NCBI RefSeq assembly: GCF_003334765.1
Contig: NZ_QOWT01000050.1
Reading direction: 5' to 3' (one strand)
Length of the DNA: 19,733 nt
Source of the DNA: Escherichia coli
Lineage (GTDB): Bacteria; Pseudomonadota; Gammaproteobacteria; Enterobacterales; Enterobacteriaceae
In this document: piece after piece, positions 11,361 through 12,152 of the stretch
Position numbering within the stretch: position 1 is the stretch's first letter
Layout of the letters: each line of letters starts with the position of its first letter
The notes under the pieces: generated by a model
What the model was told of the DNA's origin: nothing
The model's input: the letters and a program-made list of their open reading frames with translations, nothing else
Database searches by the model: none
Made by a program: the position numbers and the translations under genes

Positions 11361-12152
11361 ATGACAACACGTATAACTTTCAATATGACCAGTGATGAGA
11401 CACTGCGAATTGTGGATGAGTACTGTCATACCCACAAACTTTCGCGCTCTAAGGTAATCAACACATTACTCAACGCCACAGCACCTGTCCTTAATGACAT
11501 TAACTGTTACTATCAACTTGCAGGCGAACTGCAGTCACGCTTATTAAATGGAGTGTATCAACGGAATCTTCCCCACAAACGCAATGTCGTCAGTGCAGAG
11601 AAGTATTGTCTGGAGATCTGGGAAAACAAACTTTTCACCAGAAGTGTCCTGGAGTTTGACAGTTCAAATGGTGTTCTGTACGCGCTGAAACATAAAAGAC
11701 ACTATCGCCGGGATAAGATGATTGGAAGGGTTGAAAGTCGGTATATCAAAGACATTTGCGAATACCAGATGCAACTATCCGGGGAGAAGACGAAATATGC
11801 CTGTTTTATTTATATAGAAAGAACAATATACAATCACGATAATCCACCTGATGAAACACCTGTAAAATCGGCTGTTGGTAATGCAGTCATCCTGCTGGCA
11901 AAGGATGTGATATATAACGAGTACTTTTTTGATCTGCGGAAGTCATTTTTCGTGAGCGTTAAAGATCTGATGGCCTCTGGCACAAAAGGTATTCCGGAGA
12001 CACAGAAATATCCGGACGTTTATTGCTGGATCCCGCTTTTCTCCATAAATTCCGGCGTGGTCATTACCCCGGTCTATAAAATTGATCCCCGGAAACCCGT
12101 AACGGTAAAAAAACCGGATCAGATCACTGTTGTTTGTAATTACAGAGAATAA
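11361..12152 (+). CDS. Ribbon-helix-helix (CopG/Arc-like) N-terminal domain protein fused to an unknown ~215 aa C-terminal domain
   Basis: 263 aa ORF in AT-rich DNA, where long ORFs are unlikely by chance. N-terminus MTTRITFNMTSDETLRIVDEYCHTHKLSRSKVINTLLNA fits the RHH pattern (beta-strand RITFNM, helix, G/K-LS-R/K-S turn, helix). C-terminal domain not recognised. Weak RBS. Confidence 0.6.
   Translation: MTTRITFNMTSDETLRIVDEYCHTHKLSRSKVINTLLNATAPVLNDINCYYQLAGELQSRLLNGVYQRNLPHKRNVVSAEKYCLEIWENKLFTRSVLEFDSSNGVLYALKHKRHYRRDKMIGRVESRYIKDICEYQMQLSGEKTKYACFIYIERTIYNHDNPPDETPVKSAVGNAVILLAKDVIYNEYFFDLRKSFFVSVKDLMASGTKGIPETQKYPDVYCWIPLFSINSGVVITPVYKIDPRKPVTVKKPDQITVVCNYRE

What the first reader, a model, noticed from the sequence alone, without database searches (positions are those of the whole stretch)
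11361..12152. RHH DNA-binding domain fused to a large uncharacterised C-terminal domain
The N-terminal 40 residues fit the ribbon-helix-helix fold closely, but typical RHH proteins are 45-90 aa. Here it is fused to about 215 residues of unknown function in a strongly AT-rich gene. Such fusions can be regulators with sensor domains or single-chain toxin-antitoxin-like or abortive-infection effectors.
Basis: partly seen in the sequence, partly recalled or inferred. Interest (0 to 1): 0.55.

Follow-up and report, generated by a model that had tools for sequence, protein, structure and literature searches.

The report
YagM-family ribbon-helix-helix island regulator
This is a real E. coli genomic-island gene from the catalogued but unstudied YagM family: a small DNA-binding ribbon-helix-helix head joined to a body domain of unknown fold, which most likely switches off its own promoter through a conserved 28-bp palindrome just upstream.

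Summary
The ORF at 11361-12152 (+, 263 aa) is real. It is intact in about 736 of 5426 complete E. coli genomes, with dN/dS of about 0.25-0.4. It is a divergent member (25% identity over the full length) of the uncharacterised K-12 YagM family (Pfam PF27701 'UCP007319'). RefSeq already names the identical protein 'YagM family protein'.

New here is a 28-bp palindrome (consensus GTTATGCAT-N10-ATGCATAAC; window 11320-11347). It is conserved 4-15 bp upstream of the start codon in eight lineages. The gene is also consistently linked with AlpA, a YagK/YfjJ Rep-like gene and an integrase.

My best reading is an autoregulated dimer-of-dimers repressor with NikR-like geometry. A toxin-antitoxin or abortive-infection role is unsupported but not excluded. 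This is a known kind of protein, of moderate interest.

The parts
11361..12152 (+). YagM-family gene (263 aa plus stop)
   Evidence: ORF list. RefSeq names the identical protein WP_002431077.1 'YagM family protein'. It is 25% identical over the full length to K-12 YagM, E 7e-15. Precomputed PF27701 is present on all homologues. dN/dS is 0.25-0.38.
11361..11489 (+). Ribbon-helix-helix core, residues 1-43: strand 3-9, helix A 12-25, start of helix B from 29, conserved Pro42
11490..11594 (+). Continuation of helix B to residue 62, then a low-confidence linker (residues 63-78)
   Evidence: AF2 full-length model: H29-62, and pLDDT below 50 for residues 66-76.
11595..12149 (+). C-terminal alpha/beta domain of unknown fold, residues 79-263. 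Conserved motifs are E-x4-IW, Y-x-FD (D191 invariant), DL-x3-G, CW(I/V)P and PV.
11320..11347 (.). Operator-like palindrome GTTATGCAT-N10-ATGATTAAC (family consensus GTTATGCAT-N10-ATGCATAAC), ending 13 bp before the ATG
   Evidence: The exact motif TTATGCA-N12-TGMWTAA occurs once in the window. It also occurs once in each of 16 related loci, always just upstream of the family gene, within 256 kb of fetched DNA. The arms are invariant in eight lineages while the spacer and flanks vary. The arms are unchanged in E. coli alleles. It overlaps the -10 of a promoter-like site in L003.
12223..12243 (+). Weak terminator-like hairpin downstream of the gene
   Evidence: Consensus scan. The Buttiauxella homologue (L011) has a strong 12-bp-stem terminator in the equivalent place.
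12536..12742 (+). AlpA-family regulator, a conserved partner gene of the module
   Evidence: Pfam PF05930, E 3.7e-9. An AlpA gene is adjacent to family members in L003, L004, L006, L008, L009, L011, L012, L015, L017 and L025.
9345..9944 (-). YagK/YfjJ (inovirus-type Gp2 / REP_ORF2-G2P-like) gene, a conserved partner transcribed divergently
   Evidence: RefSeq annotation. The same family lies next to YagM-family genes in nine other loci.

Best explanation
The gene encodes a sequence-specific DNA-binding protein of the YagM family. I propose the following mechanism.

1. Two N-termini pair into a ribbon-helix-helix dimer. This is predicted, not shown.
2. The predicted target is the 28-bp palindrome directly upstream of the gene's own start codon. 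Its two 9-bp arms lie about two helical turns apart.
3. One RHH dimer reads only about half a turn of major groove, so occupying both arms needs a dimer of dimers. This is inference.
4. I propose that the family-specific C-terminal alpha/beta domain, with the long helix and flexible linker, supplies the dimer-dimer interface. It may also supply a signal-binding surface. That would give a NikR-like architecture: two RHH dimers held on a central non-DNA-binding core.
5. Binding would repress the gene's own promoter. This is inferred from the site's position.
6. The gene always sits in the AlpA / YagK-YfjJ / integrase backbone of CP4-type islands. It is therefore probably one of the island's maintenance regulators, whose loss is costly to the host. 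This last step is the least supported.
For: **RHH head**
- Family alignment: strand 'RITF' with T6 nearly invariant, S28-R-S30 at the start of helix B, and conserved P42.
- The best PDB sequence hit of the family profile is CopG, residues 1-39 against 1-38.
- Weak aCcr1 (RHH) hits occur for four members, E 2e-4 to 2.5e-3.
- Weak PHROG 'transcriptional repressor' hits fall on the N-terminus.
- The tandem AF2 model has pLDDT of about 90 in structured parts and pTM of 0.70, with both N-terminal strands formed.

**Operator**
- The arms are invariant in eight lineages whose proteins are only 21-57% identical, at a fixed distance from the start codon.
- The motif is unique within 256 kb of fetched loci.
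- It overlaps the -10 of a promoter-like site in L003.
- All palindrome-bearing lineages have the strand R-I-T-F-[N/S]. The five lineages without it have EITFS, RITIT, AVTFS, RVTFS or SVTFK.

**Autonomous unit**
- A strong terminator follows the gene in L011.
- The gene plus its upstream region is the only protein-coding segment shared by two small plasmids.

**Island backbone**
- AlpA, YagK/YfjJ, an integrase and a YagL-like recombinase are neighbours in three different gene orders.

**Cost of loss**
- K-12 yagM is listed among genes important for fitness in a transposon study (bioRxiv 10.1101/038851).
Against: - No Pfam RHH family matches the query even at E ≤ 10. The CopG and aCcr1 matches are below significance.
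- The RHH dimer comes from an artificial linked construct, and two of its five models were poor (pLDDT 55 and 51).
- DNA binding, oligomeric state and repression are all untested.
- Only one copy of the palindrome is found per locus, so no target other than the gene itself is identified.
- Subfamilies co-directional with AlpA, including K-12 yagM, lack this palindrome.
- No convincing sigma-70 promoter is predicted over the site in the window itself.
- The gene also occurs on two small plasmids without AlpA or YagK. An island-specific role therefore cannot be its only function.
Confidence: 0.5

Rival explanations
1. It is an accessory or architectural DNA-binding factor for a DNA-processing enzyme of the island. 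It would act as TraY or NikA act for relaxases, or as CopG acts for the RepB initiator of pMV158. The RHH head would bind near an origin or recombination site and help, or control synthesis of, the neighbouring YagK/YfjJ Rep-like protein or the YagL-type serine recombinase.
For: - A YagK/YfjJ gene (Pfam REP_ORF2-G2P, RefSeq 'inovirus-type Gp2 protein') lies next to the family gene in nearly every chromosomal locus.
- A YagL-like resolvase or HTH_7 gene follows directly in K-12, L008, L015, L025 and the Providencia plasmid.
- In the co-directional loci the order alpA-yagM-(yagL)-yagK looks like an operon led by the RHH gene, as in copG-repB.
- The top fold match is the relaxosome protein TraY.
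Against: - The TraY rank mostly reflects that TraY is one of the few natural tandem-RHH single chains, like my artificial construct.
- The conserved palindrome sits at the gene's own start, not beside yagK or yagL.
- The gene persists without YagK (Providencia plasmid and L010) and without YagL (the window; L003, L004, L011).
- L011 has a terminator right after the gene.
- No nick-site-like or res-like repeats were found to be shared between loci.
Confidence: 0.17
2. It is a single-gene defence or addiction module. The C-terminal domain would be a toxic or abortive-infection effector, kept low by RHH-mediated autorepression and released on phage infection or loss of the element.
For: - The host islands carry many defence systems next to the module: type I R-M, Dpd, AbiEii, McrBC, a PvuRts1I-like enzyme and CbtA/CbeA.
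- The gene with its own operator and terminator is an autonomous cassette. It turns up as cargo on small ColE1-like plasmids, which often carry Abi or TA genes.
- RHH autoregulation is typical of type II TA loci, and many top fold hits are RHH antitoxins.
Against: - No PADLOC hit for eight family members.
- No Pfam, NCBIfam or PHROG hit to any toxin or nuclease domain.
- In the C-domain only D191 is invariant, and the CW(I/V)P cysteine is replaced in four members. This does not look like a catalytic site.
- The gene occupies the conserved backbone, not the variable cargo slot, of islands with different cargo.
- ASKA overexpression clones of K-12 yagM were enriched, not lost, under oxidant selection (PMC8228696).
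- Split or frameshifted copies that keep the C-terminal piece are tolerated.
Confidence: 0.15
3. It is a decaying remnant of a mobile element, with no current function in E. coli.
For: - The surrounding island is littered with pseudogenes and IS elements.
- Many database entries are truncated or split.
- The gene is AT-rich and the K-12 paralogue is poorly expressed.
Against: - The full 263-codon frame is kept in about 736 genomes.
- dN/dS is 0.25-0.38 in both domains.
- Full-length conservation reaches across genera down to 21% identity, together with the conserved upstream palindrome.
Confidence: 0.04

Closest known systems
E. coli K-12 YagM (b0279, cryptic prophage CP4-6); Pfam PF27701 'UCP007319'; the RefSeq 'YagM family protein' label
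   Same: They are homologous over the full length: 25% identity, E 7e-15, with the same RHH-like head, linker and C-terminal motifs (Y-x-FD, CWI, PV). They share the same kind of island and neighbours: an integrase, a YagK gene, and (in other family loci) an AlpA gene. Both are functionally uncharacterised.
   Different: - Only 25% identical.
- K-12 YagM has an N-terminal extension of about 35 residues.
- K-12 YagM lies co-directionally in yagN-ykgV-yagM-yagL-yagK. Here the gene is divergent from yagK and upstream of alpA, with no yagL.
- The GTTATGCAT palindrome is absent upstream of K-12 yagM.
CopG of plasmid pMV158, and the Arc/MetJ/CopG ribbon-helix-helix superfamily
   Same: The N-terminal 40 residues align in register with CopG: M-K-R-x-T-x-x, then S-x-S at the start of helix B. 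The predicted dimer superposes on single-chain Arc at 2.3 Å. A palindromic site lies over the gene's own promoter region. From my own knowledge, not tested here, CopG represses the copG-repB promoter, and here too a Rep-like gene is the neighbour.
   Different: CopG is 45 aa and consists only of the RHH. This protein carries 220 further residues, including a 185-residue folded domain. The sequence match is not significant (E 0.6), and no Pfam RHH model matches.
NikR (RHH plus a C-terminal tetramerising, nickel-binding ACT-like domain)
   Same: Both have an N-terminal RHH followed by a folded alpha/beta C-terminal domain. From my own knowledge, the NikR operator is two short inverted half-sites at the ends of a 28-bp palindrome (GTATGA-N16-TCATAC), bound by two RHH dimers held on a central tetramer core. 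The site here is also a 28-bp palindrome with the conserved bases in the outer arms.
   Different: - There is no conserved His/Cys metal-site pattern.
- The C-domain here is about 185 residues, against about 85 in NikR.
- This is an analogy of architecture, not membership.
WYL1 (RHH plus WYL ligand-binding domain, a Cas13d accessory protein) and RHH antitoxins such as ParD, KacA and TacA
   Different: The C-terminal parts are unrelated. There is no WYL domain, no disordered toxin-binding tail and no adjacent toxin gene.

Membership tests
YagM family (Pfam PF27701 UCP007319) | Significant full-length sequence similarity to E. coli K-12 YagM | tested here: met
   BLASTP against b0279: E 7e-15, 25% identity over residues 5-257 against 40-275. 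The two align end to end in the 22-sequence family alignment.
YagM family (Pfam PF27701 UCP007319) | Match to the family's profile, or a curated name | tested here: met
   All 27 homologues, including 95%-identical P0001, carry precomputed PF27701. RefSeq names the identical protein WP_002431077.1 'YagM family protein'. The local Pfam-A copy and NCBIfam lack a model for it, so the query itself could not be scored directly.
Ribbon-helix-helix (Arc/MetJ/CopG) superfamily | Strand-helix-helix topology, with the N-terminal strands of two chains pairing into an antiparallel ribbon | tested here: met
   [not shown]
Ribbon-helix-helix (Arc/MetJ/CopG) superfamily | Conserved small or polar residues at the turn into helix B, and alternating polar/basic residues on the strand | tested here: met
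   In the 16-sequence N-terminal alignment A2, S28 and S30 are invariant and T6 is nearly so. The consensus is K-R-I-T-F. These align with CopG R4, T6 and the S-K-S turn.
Ribbon-helix-helix (Arc/MetJ/CopG) superfamily | Significant match to a curated RHH sequence profile | tested here: not met
   There is no Pfam hit for the query at E ≤ 10. aCcr1 NCBIfam scores 17.7 bits against a cut-off of 60. CopG scores E 0.6. One of 22 members hits DUF6364 at 8e-4. Membership therefore rests on predicted fold and motif, not on profile score.
Ribbon-helix-helix (Arc/MetJ/CopG) superfamily | Sequence-specific binding of repeated or palindromic DNA | not testable with these tools
   A conserved palindrome is present at the expected place, but binding was not measured.
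Type II toxin-antitoxin or fused toxin-antitoxin | A recognisable toxin domain in the same chain, or a toxin gene adjacent in an operon | tested here: not met
   No toxin or defence profile matches eight family members. The neighbours are AlpA, a YagK/YfjJ gene and an Hha fragment.
NikR family | A C-terminal ACT-like metal-binding tetramerisation domain with conserved His/Cys ligands | tested here: not met
   [not shown]

The most novel reading that the evidence does not exclude
YagM-family proteins could be the so-far unidentified master repressors of CP4-type enterobacterial islands. An orphan-fold C-terminal domain would hold two RHH dimers on a 28-bp operator and sense a trigger, such as phage infection, conjugative entry or a metabolite. 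Release of the repressor would then allow AlpA-driven excision and YagK/YfjJ-dependent replication of the island. This would also give a function to a K-12 y-ome gene and define a new sensor fold.
Probability: 0.15. Interest if true: 0.6.

Novelty: new member of a known kind. Interest (0 to 1): 0.35.

Why it matters
YagM is one of the still-unassigned 'y' genes of E. coli K-12 (PMC11551758). Its family sits in the conserved backbone of CP4-type islands, which carry adhesins, defence systems and metabolic cargo in many Enterobacterales.

This work makes the family experimentally tractable by assigning three things:
- a predicted DNA-binding fold;
- a precise 28-bp candidate operator;
- a fixed genetic neighbourhood (AlpA, a YagK/YfjJ Rep-like gene, an integrase).

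One gel-shift and one reporter assay could test the model. The C-terminal domain appears to be an orphan fold confined to Enterobacterales and Aeromonas, with only 39 cluster representatives among 1.84 billion. If it proves to be a sensor or oligomerisation module controlling island excision, that would explain how these widespread islands stay silent.

As it stands, this is an ordinary though uncharacterised regulator-like gene of a catalogued family. It is not a new kind of system.

Tried and rejected
**1. Known function for the C-domain.** Every search gave nothing above noise:
- Pfam on the query and on 22 members;
- NCBIfam, PHROGs and PADLOC on eight members;
- phmmer and hmmsearch against PDB sequences, using the full profile and the C-domain profile;
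- Foldseek against AFDB50. Only weak PilO-like matches appeared (probability 0.3-0.66), and I do not rely on them.

**2. Stand-alone or differently fused C-domain.** The C-domain-only profile search found only the same family. I inspected the contigs of two short hits (P0060, P0069). Both are split genes with the RHH piece encoded just upstream.

**3. YagM as a plasmid replication initiator.** I considered this because two ~4-kb plasmids share only this gene and a 460-bp noncoding region. I rejected it because that region is the ori-like segment of 323 small plasmids, some as small as 2.4 kb, that match no YagM-family protein. Rfam found no RNAI in it.

**4. Phage origin.** There are no matches in 50,697 phage genomes or in IMG/VR.

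**5. Extra operator copies.** None were found near yagK, alpA or elsewhere. One 2-mismatch hit at 2590-2615 is within chance expectation.

**6. The 13-bp tandem array upstream (10974-11030) as the RHH target.** It is not conserved outside E. coli and is unrelated to the palindrome.

**7. Known RNAs.** Rfam found none in the window.

**8. Wide genome scan.** The first scan, with the 22-sequence alignment, failed for lack of conserved stretches. The rerun with eight close sequences gave only six loci.

**9. Literature.** Searches for YagM, YfjJ, YagK and UCP007319 found no functional study.
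Full report
**1. The observation**

The window contains an ATG-started ORF of 263 codons at 11361-12152 on the + strand. It is 41.9% GC, in a window of 47.5% GC. A 1-kb spacer of 36% GC precedes it. So it is AT-richer than its surroundings, though 'strongly' is generous.

The window is E. coli chromosomal DNA:
- The 1.1-kb stretch around the gene is 100% identical in five complete genomes.
- It is present in 759 of 5426 genomes. In 735 of these, one match covers at least 80% of the query.
- It is never on a plasmid of that collection.

Three alleles keep the frame, and dN/dS is 0.25-0.38 in both the N- and C-terminal parts. Full-length homologues of 21-57% identity occur in other Enterobacterales and in Aeromonas. 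All share the N-terminus M-x-x-R-I-T-F, which fixes the start codon. The gene is real and under purifying selection.

**2. Family**

- RefSeq calls the identical protein (WP_002431077.1) 'YagM family protein' in one genome and 'hypothetical protein' in others.
- It aligns over its full length with K-12 YagM (b0279, cryptic prophage CP4-6) at 25% identity, E 7e-15.
- Every homologue in the large protein collection carries the precomputed Pfam family PF27701, 'UCP007319'. The local Pfam-A and NCBIfam copies have no model for it.
- The family is small. An exhaustive HMMER scan of 1.84 billion cluster representatives gave 39 hits at E ≤ 0.001. A scan of one genome for each of 100,044 species gave six loci of the close subfamily. 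Five are in Enterobacterales. The sixth is a probably contaminated Collinsella MAG contig.
- No paper in the library assigns it a function. K-12 yagM appears only in gene lists.
- Two scraps are worth noting. yagM is listed among genes important for fitness in a transposon study (bioRxiv 10.1101/038851). ASKA clones of yagM were enriched under H2O2 and HOCl selection (PMC8228696).

**3. The N-terminal head**

The alignment shows a strand (consensus K-R-I-T-F, T6 nearly invariant). A helix follows, then S28-R-S30 (both serines invariant in the 16-sequence N-terminal alignment), a second helix and a conserved Pro42.

Profile evidence is weak but consistent:
- The best hit of the family profile among all PDB sequences is CopG, residues 1-39 against 1-38 in register. 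Its E-value is only 0.6.
- Four members hit the RHH family aCcr1 at E 2e-4 to 2.5e-3, far below the curated cut-off.
- Two members hit PHROG 'transcriptional repressor' families.
- One member hits DUF6364.
- No Pfam RHH model matches the query itself.

An RHH forms only in a dimer, and the monomer AlphaFold model leaves residues 1-11 unstructured. I therefore built a single-chain construct: residues 1-64, a 25-residue Gly/Ser linker, then residues 1-64 again, for 16 family members.
- The best model has mean pLDDT 81 (about 90 in the structured blocks) and pTM 0.70.
- Both N-terminal strands form (3-9 and 92-98), followed by helices 12-25 and 29-63.
- Next come WYL1, DndE, AvtR and more than twenty RHH repressors and antitoxins.

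Caveats: the construct is artificial, two of the five models were poor, and this is prediction only.

**4. The rest of the protein**

In the full-length model (pLDDT 81, pTM 0.64) helix B runs on to residue 62. Residues 63-78 have low confidence. Residues 79-263 form a confident alpha/beta domain of three main helices, two short ones and about ten strands.

- Foldseek against AFDB50 returns only family members. Some are already labelled 'CopG family transcriptional regulator' by UniProt. A few ~314-aa enterobacterial unknowns follow at E about 1e-4, then noise-level PilO hits.
- A profile of the C-domain alone finds only the same family, always with the RHH head, and nothing in the PDB.
- I checked the contigs of two apparently stand-alone C-terminal pieces, P0060 and P0069. 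Both are split genes with the RHH part in the preceding ORF.
- In the C-domain, D191 (motif Y-x-F-D) is invariant, and F190 and G207 are nearly so. The Cys of CW(I/V)P is replaced in four members. Nothing resembles a catalytic site.

The domain is thus an orphan, restricted to this family.

**5. Surroundings and relatives**

In the window the gene is flanked as follows:
- On the left, after a 1-kb AT-rich spacer, lie a truncated Hha-like ORF (10176-10316, −) and a YagK/YfjJ 'inovirus-type Gp2' gene (9345-9944, −).
- On the right lies an AlpA gene (12536-12742, +; Pfam PF05930, E 3.7e-9), followed by an unknown 205-aa ORF.

The same partners recur around family members elsewhere, in three orders:
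- **Order (a):** AlpA(−) YagK/YfjJ(−) <> YagM(+) GTPase(+) DUF932 ... YfjT, RadC, CbeA/CbtA. This is seen in Pectobacterium, Citrobacter-like, Buttiauxella and other contigs. Different defence cargo (type I R-M, Dpd, McrBC) lies beyond AlpA.
- **Order (b):** Int, AlpA, YagM, (YagL-like recombinase or HTH_7), YagK, all co-directional. This is seen in L006, L008, L015, L025 and, in the same gene order, K-12 CP4-6, where no gene is annotated as AlpA.
- **Order (c):** the window's order.

The gene therefore belongs to the conserved backbone of CP4-type integrative islands, not to their variable cargo. It is absent from phage genomes and IMG/VR.

Unexpectedly, a 30%-identical member sits on a 4,136-bp Providencia plasmid. 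That plasmid also carries a serine recombinase, a lipoprotein-like gene and an unannotated 136-aa ORF. A related gene lies on a 3.6-kb contig whose ends overlap, so it is probably circular (L010).

The two small replicons share only the YagM gene with about 470 bp upstream, plus a 460-bp noncoding region. That region occurs in 323 small plasmids, some as small as 2.4 kb, that match no YagM-family protein. It is therefore presumably the origin, and YagM is cargo, not the Rep.

**6. A conserved palindrome**

Aligning upstream regions revealed a palindrome ending 4-15 bp before the start codon:
- Window 11320-11347: GTTATGCAT-ATCAACCAGT-ATGATTAAC.
- Two distant subfamilies (L011, L017) have the perfect form GTTATGCAT-N10-ATGCATAAC.
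- L009 has it with one arm mismatch.
- The Providencia plasmid has it with one extra spacer base.

The pattern TTATGCA-N12-TGMWTAA occurs exactly once in the window. It also occurs once in each of 16 loci, always at this position and nowhere else in the 256 kb of fetched DNA. In an alignment of eight lineages the arm bases are invariant, while the spacer and flanks are not. E. coli alleles vary in the spacer but not in the arms.

In Pectobacterium (L003) the right arm supplies the -10 (TATGAT) of a promoter-like site, and the left arm fills its spacer. In L011 a strong terminator follows the gene.

All palindrome-bearing lineages have the strand R-I-T-F-[N/S]. The five lineages without it (K-12, L006, L008, L010, L015) differ in that strand. 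This covariation is suggestive but rests on few lineages.

**7. Mechanism**

Shown by computation:
- a real, selected gene;
- a predicted RHH dimer;
- an orphan C-domain;
- a phylogenetically footprinted palindrome at the gene's own 5' end;
- fixed neighbours.

Inferred:
- The RHH binds this palindrome and represses its own promoter.
- The conserved arms are about two helical turns apart, and an RHH ribbon reads only about half a turn. Both arms can therefore be occupied only by two dimers, so the protein should act as a dimer of dimers.
- The only part of the protein available to join the two dimers is the long helix, linker and C-terminal domain.

This is the NikR plan. From my own knowledge, two RHH dimers sit on a central tetrameric core and bind GTATGA-N16-TCATAC, also 28 bp. 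The resemblance is functional only, because the NikR membership features were tested and not met.

Whether the C-domain also senses a signal is not shown. Nor is it shown whether the protein controls alpA, yagK/yfjJ or the rightward backbone genes. The fitness cost of yagM disruption in K-12 would fit a repressor, but that gene is only 25% identical.

**8. Rivals**

- **Accessory factor for the YagK/YfjJ Rep-like protein or the YagL recombinase (CopG-RepB or TraY-like).** The neighbourhood makes this plausible. It is weakened because the gene persists without either partner, and because the conserved site lies at its own start.
- **Single-gene defence or addiction module.** This fits the defence-rich islands and the plasmid cargo. 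But there is no toxin-like domain, no PADLOC hit and no invariant catalytic residues, and the gene sits in the backbone.
- **Decay remnant.** This is contradicted by selection and conservation.

**9. Novelty and verdict**

But the object is a member of an already catalogued, uncharacterised family (YagM / PF27701), and the RHH head is already flagged on some UniProt entries.

What this analysis adds:
- fold-level support for the RHH;
- evidence that the C-domain is an orphan fold, never found alone;
- the conserved 28-bp operator candidate;
- the module context;
- the small-plasmid occurrences.

I rate it a new member of a known kind, of moderate interest (0.35). One gel shift and one reporter assay would test the model.

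Noticed in passing
window 10974-11030: There is a tandem array of 13-bp units (consensus TTACAAGGTACAT; 4.4 copies, or 2.2 copies of a 26-bp unit) about 330 bp upstream of the gene. It creates several overlapping promoter-like sites. Copy number varies between E. coli strains: L013 and L014 carry 26 bp (two units) more. It was not found in other genera and is unrelated to the palindrome.
   Followed up: partly
window 10176-10316 (-): A short Hha/YmoA-family ORF (46 aa by my ORF list) matches only positions 28-71 of the 72-residue Hha profile. It appears to be an N-terminally truncated copy, sitting between yagK/yfjJ and the long AT-rich spacer. RefSeq annotates it as an intact small gene.
   Followed up: no
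window 7130-7696 (-), 8168-8593 (-), 8590-8979 (-), 9345-9944 (-): Two YagK/YfjJ paralogues flank a pair of overlapping 'putative zinc ribbon protein' genes. The same four-gene block is kept in other E. coli strains. None has an NCBIfam match.
   Followed up: no
L024 (NZ_CP114799.1, 4136 bp) and L010 (3588-bp contig with overlapping ends): Two small ColE1-like replicons from Providencia-type hosts carry a YagM-family gene as cargo. L024 also holds an unannotated 136-aa ORF running across the record start. The shared 460-bp noncoding region (L024 204-663) is found in 323 small plasmids of Proteus, Providencia, Klebsiella, E. coli, Pasteurella and others. Rfam detects no RNAI in it.
   Followed up: partly
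L015 3816-4501 and L017 2555-3294: Family members here are split into an RHH-bearing ORF and a C-domain ORF, by frameshift or stop. Gene callers therefore report apparently stand-alone C-terminal domains. The L015 island lies next to smpB, like CP4-57.
   Followed up: yes
window 3733-5352 (+): A 539-aa ISL3-family transposase ORF matches the 370-position ISL3 profile end to end, leaving roughly 135 extra residues in the protein. Residues 303-398 also match the N-terminus of the IS21 transposase profile (E 1.6e-16). It may be a chimeric or interrupted transposase.
   Followed up: no
L018 (JAIJJM010000108.1, 'Collinsella sp.' MAG contig, 7.2 kb): A 92%-identical copy of this E. coli gene, with the same upstream palindrome, sits on a contig binned as the actinobacterium Collinsella. 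This is most likely binning contamination by enterobacterial DNA.
   Followed up: no
L002 8946-9800 (-) (K-12 yagM): The annotated K-12 YagM has about 35 extra N-terminal residues before the RHH strand, compared with all other family members. Its upstream region lacks the GTTATGCAT palindrome. The operator of this subfamily, if there is one, is unknown.
   Followed up: no
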